Notes under the pieces: generated by a model
The model's database searches: none
Seen by the model: the letters and a program-made list of their open reading frames with translations, nothing else
Told to the model about the DNA's origin: nothing
Position numbers and translations under genes: made by a program
Shown: piece by piece, positions 7,073 to 14,798 of the stretch
How positions within the stretch are numbered: position 1 is the first letter of the stretch
Layout: each line of letters starts with the position of its first letter
From: a plasmid
Length of the DNA: 64,000 nt
Reading direction: 5' to 3' (one strand)
Sequence record: NZ_CP092205.1

Positions 7073-10000
7073 TTAGCGTGATCCAAAACATTCATTCGAC
7101 CCGTAAACCGCATCTACACTATAATAAATTCCCGCAATCTCAGATGCCTCAAAAGCTTCAGCTAACGAGAAAACGACCCCCTCGCCAGTAGCCAAAGCAA
7201 AAAGTGATATCGCTACAGATGCACAACCTGCAATTCTTTTTCTTTCTTCGTCTCTTTTGCTGTGCCGATGGAGGAACTCCCTACCTTGCTTATCGCTATG
7301 TCTAAAAATATCTCTCCAATGATGATCCACCATTCGCAATAATTTTCTAACCGTATGATCATTTTTTCGCAATTGTTTCTTAGTTTTATGCTTAACGTTA
7401 TGATTCAGTTTATGAGCATTCCTTAAAATTGCTCTTCCGCCATGGTCCACTCTCTCTTGCAATTCTTGAAAACTATTATTGACAGAATGGATAGTTTTTT
7501 TTAGTTGTTCGTTAAATTTATGAACTATTACTTCTGTTCCAGTTTTCCTTGTAAATGGCCATCTTGTATGACTACTAAGCCAAGAATACCCTGTCGAGTC
7601 TATTCGATCAATCGGATTTCCGCCAACATACATGTATCCATTCGTCCCATCTATTCCTTGATCAACGATCGAATCCGCTTGCAAGAACCTTCCTAACATC
7701 GGTTCGTAATATCTTGCTTTGTAATAATAAAGTCCAGTGTCCTTGTCTTCAATTTGGCCCGTAAACTTGTAACGGAATATATCCGGACCATAAGAATCGT
7801 TTCGTACAATCGATCCATACGGCTCATAGGAAACATAGCTCACTCCAGGTTCCGGTCCCGAAGCTGGATTACCAGCTCCATCAGTGATCATTTGAACCGA
7901 CCCAAGATGATCCGGATGATAAAAATACATTCCTGTCACCGGCATTCCTCCCACACTTCCACCGTCTGAAATTCCTACTCCGGGATTCTGAATACTTGTC
8001 ACGCTGGGATTTAAGTTCGCTCCCATTGCAAGGATCCAAGGCGGATCTCCTTCTTTGCCGACCGTCCCCGGCAATATACCGCATCCAGGTAAAGATGTTA
8101 CTACAAAAAGGGACAAGATCAACGCGGGAGTTCCCACAGCCTTCCAACTCAGTCTTTGAAGTAACTCGTTCCCTCGGAGAAAATAAGGGTACGATAAATA
8201 ACAAACTCCTAATAAGAGCAAGAAATAAAACGCGTTGTAAGACCCGGTTGGGGCACCCTTTTGAAAGTATTTAGAATATCCGAATATGGAAATAAACTCA
8301 GATTGAACCCGATTTTTGTAATACGTCCCACAATCGTCCACTATATCCTTGCAAAACGGATTTGTCAGAGGTCCCACAATTCTTCCGACAAACAATCCAA
8401 ACGAATTCTCGCTTGACTCGATCGTGTTGCTTGCTTCCGCCAACTGCAATGTCGCGTCTCCCCTCGTCCACTGCGCCACAAGATCACCCTGCAGGCCTCT
8501 CACATACAAAGTATGCTGCTCGGGTTGGCCCGGGTTCCTTACGATCTCATAATTTTCACCTAACATATATGTTGAAATCAAGGAAATATCCGAAACTGAC
8601 TTTACACGGTTCCCTTGAAAGTCGTACGTATTTCGAATCGAACCGCTCGTTGCATAGGGTGTAATTTCAATTAGTTTTCCATAACTGTCGTAACGAAGCG
8701 TATCTCCGTTTCTCGAAACCATGTTCCCACTTGCGTCATATCCGTAATTGAATGTTCCCGTGCTTGGACTAGTCGCGGTAGTAACCGCATTTGCGTGAGT
8801 TCCATCACCGTAAGCTAAAGTATATGCGCCTTTTTGAATCAAGTTTCCATTAGTTGAAAAAACATAGTCTTGGATGCCGTATTTTCCAATTGCCTGCACC
8901 ACCCTTCCTAAATTGTCCAAAGTAAAGTTTTGAGTTCTCATCGGGTTCAACTTGTCTTCAATTTTCGTTATATGTCCCTTCGCGTCATACGTGTATTCCG
9001 CGTTCCCGATCACATTCCCATCCGGTTTTTTAGAAAGAATCGTTAAAGGCTTCTTGTCCAAAGGTTCAAAACCGATTTCCATAGTAACACCGTTTCCGGT
9101 CGTTCTTCGTAGAGACAGAACTCCATCCGCATTCAAGTAAGGTCCTTGGTAGCTGACTATCGTATGCCCTACACTCGTTCCATCCGCGTTGTCCATCGTG
9201 ATACTCGACAACGTTCCATTCGGGGAATAGAAATTGTGAGTTTTGGTTCCATCCGGATACGTTTGAGTTACCGGTCTTCCCAGGGAGTCATAGTCCGTTT
9301 TGAAAATCGCAATCACATCATCGATATATTTCTTTGTCTGTGTCACTTCCCCTTTTTGGCTGTATCGATATTCCGTTTTTCCCGAGCCGTCCGTTATCTG
9401 CGTTACGCGACCCTTGGAATACGGCACGCTTCCGTCGTCATATACATACGCAACCGGTGCTTCCGGTCCATTCGTGCTTTGAGTCAAAACTCTTCCAAGC
9501 GTATCATACGTAAAGTTGACTTGCTTTCCTCTTGCGTCCGTCTGGCTCGTAACCCTACCGACTCCGTCGTATCCGAACGTAATTGTTCCCGAATTCGGAT
9601 CTTGTGTGGAAACTTTTCTTCCTAAAGAATTGTAAGAAAAGCTCGTTATAAGCCCGCTCGGATCCGTGACACTCGCAACTCCTCCAAATGGAGAGTAAGA
9701 ATAGGATACGGTTCTACCTTGAGTCGTCCTGCTTGTCACTTGTCCGAGTTCATTTTTGGCCTCATTCTCGGTCGTAACCTGTCCGTCCGGATACGTGACC
9801 GTTTTTGTTTCCGTAAATCCAGATCGTGTAATTGTAGTTAGGATGGTCCCGTTTAAGCTCGGTTCTACGAAGGAACTCAAAACTCTATCCGGATTAGTAT
9901 ATTGATACGTAGTATATTGAGGACTCTCTACGCTGTAATACGAATTGGATTTTCGAATCAACTGTCCGGTCGTATAATCAAAATTACTTTCCTCGATCTG

Positions 10001-14798: not shown

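What the first reader, a model, noticed from the sequence alone, without database searches (positions are those of the whole stretch)
7073..14798. ~2,290-aa Tc-toxin-like RHS gene split by an 865-bp IS5-family element with a TAA target duplication
The 836-aa N-terminal ORF and the 1,457-aa C-terminal ORF lie in series on the minus strand, separated exactly by an IS. The N-terminal ORF carries a signal peptide, the SpvB/TcdB signature 'LSLTYNSNGGNGLVGYGWSL' and FG-GAP repeats. The C-terminal ORF carries YD repeats, an RHS core and a C-terminal toxin. The IS has perfect 17-bp IRs and a flanking TAA/TAA, so it is a recent, precisely datable insertion. The upstream ORF's last codons and stop, and the downstream ORF's TTG start, are created by the IS ends. 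The uninterrupted gene would be a fused TcB–TcC-like cocoon toxin, which is unusual for a spirochaete.
Basis: partly seen in the sequence, partly recalled or inferred. Interest (0 to 1): 0.55.

Follow-up and report, generated by a model that had tools for sequence, protein, structure and literature searches.

The report
IS-broken Leptospira RHS toxin gene copy
One plasmid copy of a large shell-enclosed toxin gene that is common in pathogenic Leptospira has been knocked out by a small jumping gene, while an intact copy survives on another plasmid of the same strain, so the event itself is ordinary.

Summary
An 865-bp IS5-family element (11453-12317) has perfect 17-bp inverted repeats and a TAA/TAA duplication. 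It splits a minus-strand gene. Deleting the IS plus one TAA gives one 2,285-aa ORF that aligns without gaps to intact orthologues, and L. weilii empty sites carry a single TTA.

The protein has a TcB-like N half (signal peptide, SpvB domain, FG-GAP propeller). The C half is a YD/RHS shell with an RHS core, a PxxxxDxxG motif, two invariant Asp and a 170-aa variable tip.

"Unusual for a spirochaete" is wrong. Intact 2,300-2,370-aa orthologues occur across pathogenic and intermediate Leptospira, on chromosomes and plasmids. The window is from L. weilii FMAS_RT1, which keeps an intact 2,307-aa paralogue on plasmid CP092210.

No TcA is encoded nearby. The tip covaries with a downstream lipoprotein gene, and orphan tip/lipoprotein cassettes follow. 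It is therefore best read as an RHS polymorphic toxin/immunity locus.

This copy is decaying. It also has a unique 66-bp in-frame deletion, and an IS481-family element sits in the adjacent conserved operon.

The most interesting side observation is a clade-specific internal two-helix hydrophobic hairpin. It ends in a near-invariant, lipobox-like Cys just before the RHS core.

The parts
12288..14798 (-). N-terminal fragment ORF (836 aa). It comprises native residues 1-826, Leu827 from the TSD copy, 9 IS-encoded residues (EPVSKLLVL) and a TGA inside the IS.
14682..14798 (-). N-terminal signal peptide or signal anchor (aa 1-39). It has the MKLR n-region, a long hydrophobic core and an A-I-A/G site.
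   Evidence: Hydropathy peak 2.44; AF2 helix 3-39. The cleavage site is inferred.
14151..14645 (-). SpvB / TcB N-terminal domain (aa 52-216). It includes LSLTYNSNGGNGLVGYGWSL at aa 74-93.
   Evidence: Pfam PF03534, E 4.8e-15. PDB sequence hits to YenB, TcdB2, TcdB1 and SpvB.
13596..13634 (-). Site of a copy-specific 66-bp (22-codon) in-frame deletion in a conserved Cys-rich loop. The lost segment lies between two 11-bp direct repeats GTTGGGGAGGG, and one repeat copy remains.
   Evidence: All 19 aligned orthologues shown keep the segment. DNA alignment to L001.
12321..13565 (-). FG-GAP beta-propeller blades with an inserted helical hairpin (aa about 412-826). The propeller is cut by the IS within a DxNxDGxxD blade motif.
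   Evidence: Pfam FG-GAP and FG-GAP_3. AF2 model and Foldseek hits to TcB.
12318..12320 (.). Target-site duplication copy (TAA on the + strand, TTA/Leu827 on the coding strand).
11453..12317 (-). 865-bp IS5-family insertion sequence. The 17-bp perfect inverted repeats are at 11453-11469 and 12301-12317. orfA is 12264..11917 (115 aa, DUF4096). orfB is 11974..11468 (168 aa, DDE_Tnp_1) and lies in the -1 frame relative to orfA. Together the two ORFs cover positions 2-257 of the 258-position NCBIfam profile transpos_IS5_3.
   Evidence: Identical (100%) copies sit on two other L. weilii plasmids and a 99.4% copy on the FMAS_RT1 chromosome. PGAP annotates an identical copy as one 743-nt transposase CDS, which implies a frameshift.
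11450..11452 (.). Second target-site duplication copy (TAA).
7073..11446 (-). C-terminal fragment ORF (1,457 aa). It runs from the native Leu829 TTG codon to the native stop. It has no signal peptide of its own.
8441..11143 (-). YD/RHS-repeat shell (aa about 930-1830).
   Evidence: RHS_repeat and YD_repeat_2x. AF2 pLDDT is about 86 over the shell. Foldseek matches Tse15, RhsA, Tse5 and TcdB2-TccC3 (TMq up to 0.60).
8081..8239 (-). Internal hydrophobic hairpin (aa 1898-1950): YNAFYFLLLLGVCYLSYPYFL, then the basic loop RGNELLQRLSWK, then AVGTPALILSLFVVTSLPGC. The second helix ends in a lipobox-like Cys. A Gly/Pro-rich linker follows.
   Evidence: Present in every full-length Leptospira orthologue in which the RHS core could be located, and absent from about 35 other SpvB-RHS homologues.
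7586..7930 (-). RHS-associated core / aspartyl-protease plug (aa 2001-2115). It carries Asp2086 (FLQAD), Asp2111 and the motif P2106-x4-D-x2-G2114. The predicted cleavage is after Tyr2115.
   Evidence: TIGR03696, E 1.2e-20. The Asp and Gly are invariant in 25 sequences. The motif and catalytic Asp are as described for TcC in PMC7861908.
7076..7585 (-). Variable C-terminal tip, the putative toxin (170 aa). It is helical, basic and His-rich, with a hydrophobic segment at aa 2233-2260. No Pfam family matches.
   Evidence: Only 3 relatives were found among 1.84 billion representatives.
6731..7000 (-). [quoted passage not shown]
   Evidence: NCBIfam NF047434, E 1e-21. It is 100% conserved wherever the same tip occurs.
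4630..5379 (-). Orphan RHS tip cassette. It starts inside the core (MLGRFLQADS...DPSGH) and carries a different 200-aa tip. A 189-aa lipoprotein ORF follows at 4060-4629.
   Evidence: The 59-nt repeat of the core end at 5351-5409 is seen.
3252..3989 (-). Second orphan tip cassette. It starts at MGANVAPG..., and its core is internally deleted.
15120..16037 (+). LA_3334-family gene, the first of a conserved divergent trio. Its last 8 or so codons are replaced by the IS481-family element.
16022..17284 (+). IS481-family element (transposase 16074-17246, 45-nt imperfect inverted repeats). It is inserted between the LA_3334-family gene and the Kelch gene.
17285..19297 (+). Kelch-repeat lipoprotein gene (17285-18688) and TPR protein gene (18695-19297), the rest of the conserved trio.
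   Evidence: The synteny is seen.

Best explanation
What it is: one of two plasmid-borne paralogues of the Leptospira SpvB/beta-propeller/RHS polymorphic toxin gene, in L. weilii strain FMAS_RT1, inactivated by a recent IS5-family transposition.

How the insertion happened (shown): the element inserted at a TTA/TAA target inside a propeller blade, at codon 827 of 2,285, and duplicated 3 bp.

What the insertion leaves: an 836-aa secreted stub containing the signal peptide, the SpvB domain and most of the propeller, and a 1,457-aa remainder with no signal peptide (shown). That the remainder lacks a proper translation start of its own is inferred. The locus as a whole is decaying. It also has a copy-specific 66-bp in-frame deletion, and an IS481-family element sits in the adjacent conserved operon.

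How the intact protein most likely works (inferred from homology):
1. It is exported by Sec.
2. The TcB-like N half and the YD/RHS shell form a closed cocoon around the 170-aa C-terminal tip.
3. The RHS core cuts the tip free after Tyr2115, using Asp2086 and Asp2111 and the PxxxxDxxG motif.
4. The tip is a helical, basic protein with a hydrophobic tail. It probably acts on membranes or in the periplasm, because every cognate downstream gene encodes a lipoprotein.

The locus therefore behaves as an RHS toxin/immunity system with exchangeable tips (the orphan cassettes), most likely used against competing bacteria. It does not look like a TcA-dependent insecticidal Tc toxin. The delivery route is unknown.
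For: IS anatomy, TSD and frame restoration. Empty sites.

IS family and integrity. Identical (100%) or 99.4% copies elsewhere in L. weilii.

Domains. PDB sequence hits. AF2 plus Foldseek give TcB for the N half and Rhs/TcdB2-TccC3 for the C half.

Catalytic Asp and Gly are invariant, and the motif matches the TcC literature.

Intact orthologues occur in many Leptospira. An intact 2,307-aa paralogue is on CP092210 of FMAS_RT1. The window is assigned to FMAS_RT1.

The 3' 3 kb is 99-100% identical to the intact paralogue, whereas the 5' 1.5 kb is 72-92% identical to it (window against L001 and L017).

The tip and downstream ORF covary, and all the downstream ORFs are lipoproteins. Orphan cassettes.

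No TcA-type Pfam domain appears in the window's large ORFs or in neighbouring genes of related loci.

A Leptospira-specific polymorphic-toxin tip (PT8) has been shown to kill bacteria and fungi and to permeabilise vesicles. In L. interrogans, an RHS gene and the lipoprotein gene with the adjacent locus tag are strongly down-regulated under host-like conditions.
Against: - No experiment shows secretion, autoproteolysis, toxicity or immunity for this protein or its tip.
- The tip has no recognisable family, and the AF2 confidence for it is below 50.
- The named orthologues are all from pathogenic or intermediate clades, which would also fit a host-directed role.
- Absence of TcA was checked only around the loci, not genome-wide.
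- Assignment of the window to the 133,952-bp FMAS_RT1 replicon rests on exact protein matches, not on a DNA match to that record.
Confidence: 0.8

Rival explanations
1. It is, or was, the BC subunit of a genuine Tc (ABC) toxin. The cocoon would dock through its propeller on a pentameric TcA injector encoded elsewhere and deliver the tip into eukaryotic host cells.
For: The N half's 13 best fold matches are all TcB subunits. TcdB2-TccC3 gives the highest query TM-scores for the C half. Natural TcB-TcC fusion genes exist. The named orthologues are restricted to pathogenic and intermediate Leptospira.
Against: - No TcA-type domain (VRP1, TcA_TcB_BD, neuraminidase-like) appears in the window's large ORFs or in neighbours of about 10 related loci.
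- Leptospira and spirochaetes are not mentioned in the main text of the Tc survey.
- The TcdB_toxin_midN Pfam domain, found in many distant homologues, is not detected in the Leptospira proteins.
- A covarying lipoprotein gene follows each tip, whereas Tc loci normally lack immunity genes.
- The protein has its own Sec signal.
Confidence: 0.07
2. The split is functional. The IS has converted a fused gene into a two-chain system, analogous to separate TcB and TcC, and both pieces are made and assemble.
For: Both fragments remain long open frames. The 3' 3 kb is still 99-100% identical to intact copies.
Against: - The break lies inside a propeller blade at aa 826/827, not at a TcB/TcC-like boundary. 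The shell starts about 100 residues later.
- The C fragment has no signal peptide. Its first possible start is an internal Leu TTG right after an IS-borne stop.
- No protein is on record for the N fragment, as expected if the record treats it as a pseudogene.
- An intact paralogue makes selection for a split version unnecessary.
Confidence: 0.04
3. The intact family is a host-directed virulence factor, a secreted or surface cocoon that delivers its tip to mammalian cells without TcA. The downstream lipoproteins would serve only for self-protection during export.
For: Orthologues are named only from pathogenic and intermediate Leptospira. The L. interrogans SpvB-domain genes LA_1765 and LIC_12045 have been flagged in pathogenomic and host-adaptation studies.
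Against: - The L. interrogans RHS gene and the adjacent lipoprotein gene are about 16-fold and 9-fold down-regulated in the host-like dialysis-chamber model.
- Orphan tip/immunity arrays and tip-immunity covariation are typical of interbacterial competition.
- The validated Leptospira tip PT8 kills bacteria and fungi.
Confidence: 0.12

Closest known systems
TcB-TcC (BC) cocoon of Tc toxins: Photorhabdus TcdB2-TccC3 (PDB 4O9X, 6H6E), Yersinia YenB-YenC2 (4IGL), and natural fused BC genes such as B. pseudomallei ABA52082.1
   Same: Both have an SpvB-type N-terminal domain followed by an FG-GAP-like beta-propeller and a YD/RHS shell. Both have an RHS core with two catalytic Asp, a PxxxxDxxG motif and a hypervariable C-terminal tip. 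The fold matches are the best for the N half and among the best for the C half.
   Different: - No TcA partner is encoded nearby.
- The protein has its own Sec signal peptide.
- TcdB_toxin_midN is not detected.
- There is a 130-residue insertion with two hydrophobic helices and a lipobox-like Cys before the core.
- A helical hairpin is inserted in the propeller.
- Cognate lipoprotein genes and orphan tip cassettes lie downstream.
Rhs polymorphic toxin/immunity systems: T6SS-linked RhsA, Tse5, Tse15, RhsP, and classical E. coli rhs elements with orphan rhs-CT/rhsI cassettes
   Same: Both have a YD shell and an RHS core that cleaves off the toxin. Both have a variable tip with a covarying immunity gene immediately downstream. 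Both carry displaced orphan tips that begin inside the core sequence.
   Different: - There is no PAAR, VgrG or prePAAR N-terminus, and no T6SS context.
- The shell is closed by a TcB-like SpvB/propeller half rather than an N-terminal plug.
- The immunity candidates are lipoproteins.
Bacterial teneurin-like proteins (TLP; PDB 9IFO, 9PT5; Nat Commun 2026, PMC13018210)
   Same: Both are large single-chain YD shells that enclose a toxic C-terminus and are co-encoded with immunity genes.
   Different: TLPs and teneurins use an FN-plug plus an NHL propeller. Here the N half matches TcB (E 1e-22 to 1e-17) and matches teneurins only marginally (E about 1e-3, TMq 0.08). Leptospira is not mentioned in that study.
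IS5-family insertion sequences with a two-ORF, frameshifted transposase (NCBIfam transpos_IS5_3)
   Same: The element is 865 bp with 17-bp terminal inverted repeats and a 3-bp TAA (TNA-type) duplication. It has a DUF4096 N-part and a DDE_Tnp_1 C-part in -1 frame relation.
   Different: The ISfinder name and subgroup could not be determined with these tools. No slippery heptamer was identified with confidence.

Membership tests
IS5 family insertion sequence | DDE transposase of the IS4/IS5 type | tested here: met
   PF01609, E 1.3e-16. NF033580 transpos_IS5_3 scores 133 and 117.5 bits for the two ORFs (cut-off 110). Together they cover profile positions 2-257 of 258.
IS5 family insertion sequence | Terminal inverted repeats and a short direct target duplication | tested here: met
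   Perfect 17-bp inverted repeats and TAA/TAA. A single TTA at the empty sites. A chromosomal copy is also flanked by TTA/TTA.
IS5 family insertion sequence | Evidence of mobility (multiple near-identical copies) | tested here: met
   100% identical copies on CP092204.1 and CP092208.1. 99.3-99.5% copies on other L. weilii replicons, including the FMAS_RT1 chromosome.
Tc toxin BC component (TcB-TcC) | SpvB-type N-terminal domain plus beta-propeller (TcB part) | tested here: met
   PF03534 and FG-GAP. The top 13 Foldseek PDB hits of the N-half model are TcdB2, TcdB1 and YenB.
Tc toxin BC component (TcB-TcC) | TcdB_toxin_midN/midC domains | tested here: not met
   Not reported by Pfam for this protein, nor among the precomputed Pfam domains of the Leptospira orthologues apart from unnamed P0038, while PF12256 is listed for most distant homologues.
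Tc toxin BC component (TcB-TcC) | RHS shell with an aspartyl-protease core (two Asp, PxxxxDxxG) and a hypervariable tip | tested here: met
   The motif is as in PMC7861908.
Tc toxin BC component (TcB-TcC) | A TcA injector encoded in the locus or genome | tested here: not met
   No TcA-type domain in the window's large ORFs or in neighbours of the related loci L001-L023. A genome-wide search was not possible.
RHS polymorphic toxin/immunity system | YD/RHS repeats plus an RHS-associated core preceding a variable C-terminal domain | tested here: met
   The tips diverge right after the core among orthologues.
RHS polymorphic toxin/immunity system | A cognate immunity gene immediately downstream that covaries with the tip | tested here: met
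   Identical tips go with identical 89-aa ORFs. Tips 40% identical go with ORFs 33% identical. Unrelated tips go with unrelated ORFs, across 6 loci. The protective function itself was not tested.
RHS polymorphic toxin/immunity system | Orphan tip/immunity cassettes downstream | tested here: met
   4630-5379 plus 4060-4629, and 3252-3989. The core-end repeat is at 5351-5409.
RHS polymorphic toxin/immunity system | Toxicity of the tip and neutralisation by the immunity protein | not testable with these tools
   Only an analogy is available, to the validated Leptospira tip PT8.
Bacterial teneurin-like proteins | FN-plug and NHL propeller closing the YD shell | tested here: not met
   The N-half model matches TcB, not teneurins (teneurin E about 1e-3, TMq 0.07-0.08).

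The most novel reading that the evidence does not exclude
The Leptospiraceae SpvB/propeller/RHS proteins may form a distinct, TcA-independent class of envelope-anchored cocoon toxins.

Two features set them apart:
- A 130-residue insertion just upstream of the aspartyl-protease plug. It carries two hydrophobic helices, a basic loop between them and a near-invariant Cys in a lipobox-like position. The lipobox is canonical in two distant metagenomic relatives (LTSAAC-SGG and GITAC-SGG).
- A conserved neighbouring gene trio: an LA_3334-family putative outer-membrane protein, a Kelch lipoprotein and a TPR protein. The trio stays linked to the gene even in a Leptospiraceae MAG whose RHS protein is 35% identical.

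On this reading, the hairpin would act as an internal stop-transfer sequence plus lipoprotein-type signal. It would anchor the shell in the membrane, and might split it there. The trio would replace TcA or T6SS as the delivery or display apparatus.
Probability: 0.2. Interest if true: 0.65.

Novelty: new member of a known kind. Interest (0 to 1): 0.25.

Why it matters
The IS insertion itself matters little. It is one more example of IS-driven decay of a redundant plasmid gene in an IS-rich Leptospira, and the strain keeps an intact copy.

The gene family is of more interest. It is a large, conserved and almost unstudied toxin system of pathogenic and intermediate leptospires. It has TcB/TcC architecture but no TcA, and it carries lipoprotein immunity candidates and exchangeable tips.

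The clade-specific internal hydrophobic hairpin with its conserved Cys, and the conserved accessory trio, give concrete and testable handles on how an RHS cocoon is exported and delivered in a bacterium that has neither a T6SS nor a Tc injector.

Tried and rejected
- Exact-protein look-ups of the 836-aa fragment and of a 649-aa window ORF found nothing. The fragment is probably treated as a pseudogene.
- A scan of species-representative genomes for a 33-nt IS end found no match, so IS distribution was taken from PLSDB instead.
- An apparent extension of IS-flank similarity in L007 turned out to be chance, not the same insertion.
- Alignments of 59 sequences failed, so 25-sequence alignments were used instead.
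- Pfam and NCBIfam gave nothing meaningful for the tip, the orphan tips or the 189-aa ORF.
- A full HMMER scan of 1.84 billion representatives found only 3 relatives of the tip, so its activity remains a guess.
- The IS has no match in the phage collection.
- Literature searches for Leptospira with TcA/TcB/TcC found nothing relevant. HINT-type LA_3725 is a different protein.
- No convincing X XXY YYZ slippery site could be assigned in the orfA/orfB overlap.
- The AF2 model is too uncertain over the hairpin and the tip (pLDDT below 50) to say whether the hairpin lies inside or outside the shell.
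Full report
**1. Observation**

The minus strand carries two long ORFs in series: 12288..14798 (836 aa, ATG) and 7073..11446 (1,457 aa, TTG). Between them lies an 865-bp element (11453-12317). Its ends are a perfect 17-bp inverted repeat, GAACCGGTCTCAAAACT, which diverges beyond base 17. TAA flanks it on both sides, at 11450-11452 and 12318-12320. The 17-mer occurs only at these two sites in the window, against 0.02 expected by chance.

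The element encodes a 115-aa ORF (DUF4096) and an overlapping 168-aa ORF (DDE_Tnp_1) in the -1 frame. Both match NCBIfam transpos_IS5_3 above its cut-off and together cover the whole profile. PGAP annotates an identical copy as a single 743-nt 'IS5 family transposase' CDS, which implies a programmed frameshift.

Deleting 11453-12320 yields one uninterrupted 2,285-aa ORF. Its junction...GEVNGDGLSD|LVLFNRESH..., aligns without a gap to ten orthologues. At the DNA level, L. weilii loci read CCGAT-TTA-GTATTG at the empty site. The window has TTA on each side of the IS on the coding strand.

One small correction is needed. The upstream ORF does end in nine IS-encoded codons and an IS-borne TGA. The downstream 'TTG start', however, is the native Leu829 codon. 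Only the preceding in-frame TGA is in the IS.

**2. Source and context**

Seven of ten window ORFs are exact matches to proteins of Leptospira weilii (ULH accessions) on a 133,952-bp contig. That contig encodes phage tail sheath, capsid and baseplate proteins. The window's IS66 transposase is also found on the 4,275,568-bp chromosome of the same assembly. That assembly is GCA_022453935, strain FMAS_RT1, from human blood in Sri Lanka.

The gene sits next to plasmid partition genes (ParA, a ParB-like gene, a putative rep gene). The same strain carries an intact 2,307-aa paralogue on its 93-kb plasmid CP092210, with identical synteny.

The two copies are mosaic. They are 72-92% identical over the first 1.5 kb (window against L001 and L017) and 99-100% identical over the last 3 kb, including the tip and the downstream gene. 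That pattern indicates recent recombination or gene conversion.

**3. The protein**

*N half.* Residues 1-39 are a signal peptide or signal anchor. Residues 52-216 match SpvB, and match YenB, TcdB2, TcdB1 and SpvB in the PDB by sequence. FG-GAP blades follow.

An AlphaFold2 model of the N half has mean pLDDT 69.8. It shows the SpvB beta region, a low-confidence Cys-rich loop, propeller blades and an inserted helical hairpin. Its 13 best Foldseek PDB matches are all TcB subunits, with E values from 3e-22 to 1.5e-17.

*C half.* It has RHS_repeat and YD repeats and an RHS-associated core. The model of the last 1,200 residues has pLDDT of about 86 over the shell. It matches Tse15, RhsA, Tse5, Salmonella bongori Rhs and TcdB2-TccC3, with TMq up to 0.60.

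The core carries FLQAD(2086) and the motif P2106-IDRI-D2111-ST-G2114-Y2115. Both Asp and the Gly are invariant in a 25-sequence alignment that reaches down to 24% identity. They correspond to the PxxxxDxxG motif and catalytic Asp described for TcC.

*The tip.* The last 170 residues differ completely between orthologues. They have no Pfam or NCBIfam family. They are predicted helical at low confidence. Only three relatives exist among 1.84 billion representative proteins, and two of those end RHS proteins of the same kind.

**4. Not unusual in spirochaetes**

A search with the restored protein returns intact 2,300-2,370-aa orthologues at 41-95% identity, all with the same Pfam architecture. They come from these species:
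- Pathogenic clade: L. weilii, alexanderi, interrogans, santarosai, noguchii, kirschneri, alstonii, yasudae, barantonii, kmetyi, adleri and sanjuanensis.
- Intermediate clade: L. fluminis, wolffii, dzoumogneensis, neocaledonica, selangorensis, langatensis and hartskeerlii.

Copies are on many L. interrogans plasmids and on the L. interrogans chromosome. The L. interrogans genes (LA_1765, LIC_12045) have been noted in the literature as 'SpvB-domain' proteins. Natural TcB-TcC fusion genes are already known elsewhere.

**5. Toxin/immunity locus rather than Tc toxin**

No TcA-type domain is present in the window's large ORFs or among the neighbours of related loci.

[quoted passage not shown] Across six loci, the tip and the next ORF covary:
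- Identical tips go with identical ORFs.
- Tips 40% identical go with ORFs 33% identical.
- Unrelated tips go with unrelated ORFs.
- Every one of these ORFs has a lipoprotein signal.

Further downstream the window holds two orphan cassettes. One begins inside the core sequence (MLGRFLQADS...DPSGH) and carries a different tip, followed by a 189-aa lipoprotein ORF. The other has an internally deleted core. The core-end repeat is visible at DNA level. These are the hallmarks of RHS polymorphic toxin systems.

Published work supports this reading. A Leptospira-specific polymorphic-toxin tip, PT8, kills B. subtilis and fungi and permeabilises vesicles. An L. interrogans RHS gene and the lipoprotein gene with the adjacent locus tag fall 16-fold and 9-fold in a host-like dialysis-chamber model. 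That argues for an environmental or competitive role rather than an in-host role.

**6. State of this copy**

Besides the IS5-family insertion, this copy alone lacks 22 codons of a conserved Cys-rich loop. The lost segment lies between two 11-bp direct repeats, GTTGGGGAGGG.

The conserved divergent trio upstream consists of an LA_3334-family protein, a Kelch lipoprotein and a TPR protein. It is hit by a 1.26-kb IS481-family element (16022-17284), which replaces the last residues of the LA_3334-family protein. An IS66 element truncates another Kelch gene at 2271-3182.

The IS5-family element is active in this species. Identical (100%) copies are on two other L. weilii plasmids, and one of them interrupts a CsgG/HfaB gene. 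A 99.4% copy is on the FMAS_RT1 chromosome.

'Recent' is therefore reasonable, but 'precisely datable' is not. The break is inside a propeller blade, and the C fragment has no signal peptide. A functional two-chain reading is therefore unlikely.

**7.

*An internal hydrophobic hairpin.* Between the last YD repeats and the core there is a 130-residue insertion (window 8081-8239 for its hydrophobic part). It consists of these parts in order:
- a conserved Cys pair
- helix YNAFYFLLLLGVCYLSYPYFL
- the basic loop RGNELLQRLSWK
- helix AVGTPALILSLFVVTSLPGC
- a Gly/Pro-rich linker

Apart from the N-terminal signal and one segment in the tip, these are the only hydrophobic segments in the protein.

The hairpin is present in every full-length Leptospira orthologue in which the RHS core could be located and in five more distant relatives. 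It is absent from about 35 other SpvB/FG-GAP/RHS homologues in which the core could be located.

The Cys after the second helix is conserved in nearly all hairpin-bearing sequences. In two metagenomic relatives it sits in a canonical lipobox (LTSAAC-SGG and GITAC-SGG). One other relative has an AHA-type site instead.

*A conserved gene trio.* The LA_3334-family/Kelch/TPR trio accompanies the RHS gene in all Leptospira loci inspected. It is also present in a Leptospiraceae MAG whose RHS protein is 35% identical, where the trio members are 26% and 41% identical for the first two.

Together these features suggest a dedicated, envelope-anchored route for this cocoon. That is an inference. AF2 is uninformative there, with pLDDT below 50.

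**8. Verdict**

The structural part of the interpretation (a TcB+TcC-like single chain split by an IS5-family element) is right. The biological framing (Tc toxin, unusual for a spirochaete, datable) is not.

The event is an ordinary IS-mediated pseudogenisation of a redundant plasmid copy of a known, annotated but uncharacterised Leptospira RHS polymorphic toxin family. The interest of the finding as stated is low. The family's internal hairpin and accessory trio deserve follow-up.

Noticed in passing
window 8081-8239 (minus strand; restored aa 1898-1950), with the linker to about 7931: A clade-specific internal hydrophobic hairpin lies just before the RHS core. It has two helices and a basic loop, and the second helix ends in the lipobox-like LPGC. 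It is present in every full-length Leptospira orthologue in which the RHS core could be located. In two distant relatives the lipobox is canonical (LTSAAC-SGG, GITAC-SGG). It is absent from about 35 other SpvB-RHS homologues.
   Followed up: partly
window 15120-19297; L017 15208-18199; L021 4694-7697; L022 2261-5159: A conserved gene trio is always linked to the RHS gene in Leptospiraceae. It consists of an LA_3334-family protein (signal peptide, PH-like domain and a probable beta-barrel), a Kelch-repeat lipoprotein and a TPR protein with a C-terminal TM segment. The linkage holds even in a MAG with a 35%-identical RHS protein. It may be an export or display partner.
   Followed up: partly
window 16022-17284: A 1.26-kb IS481-family element (390-aa transposase, 45-nt imperfect inverted repeats) is inserted at the 3' end of the LA_3334-family gene. 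It separates that gene from the Kelch gene.
   Followed up: partly
window about 13612 (aa 394/395): A copy-specific 66-bp in-frame deletion lies between two 11-bp direct repeats GTTGGGGAGGG. It removes 22 conserved residues, including a Cys, from a Cys-rich loop.
   Followed up: yes
window 3252-5379: Two orphan RHS tip cassettes (4630-5379 and 3252-3989) sit here, with a 189-aa lipoprotein ORF (4060-4629) between them. Several tips share a GLMHMVNRxxGHAxGKDF linker motif with orthologues from other species.
   Followed up: partly
window 333-3182: An IS66-family element (115-aa ORF at 333-680 and a 553-aa transposase at 723-2384, with identical copies on six contigs of the assembly) abuts a 303-aa Kelch-repeat ORF (2271-3182) and appears to truncate it.
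   Followed up: no
window about 23000-64000: The rest of the window looks like a phage-plasmid. It encodes a tail sheath, capsid, baseplate J, a DNA methyltransferase, a 1,584-aa LPD1/methyltransferase polyvalent protein and a 912-aa InPase/ParB-like protein. ParA, a ParB-like gene and a putative rep gene sit at 19699-22641.
   Followed up: no
whole gene 7073-14798 compared with L001 and L017: Identity to the intact paralogue is mosaic. The 5' 1.5 kb is 72-92% identical (window against L001 and L017), the middle is variable, and the 3' 3 kb plus the downstream gene are 99-100% identical. This suggests recent recombination or gene conversion between plasmid copies.
   Followed up: partly
window 5704-6021: A 105-aa lipoprotein with a Bor (phage lambda serum-resistance) domain match just below the Pfam cut-off (24.6 against 25 bits) is conserved downstream of the RHS locus in L. 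weilii.
   Followed up: no
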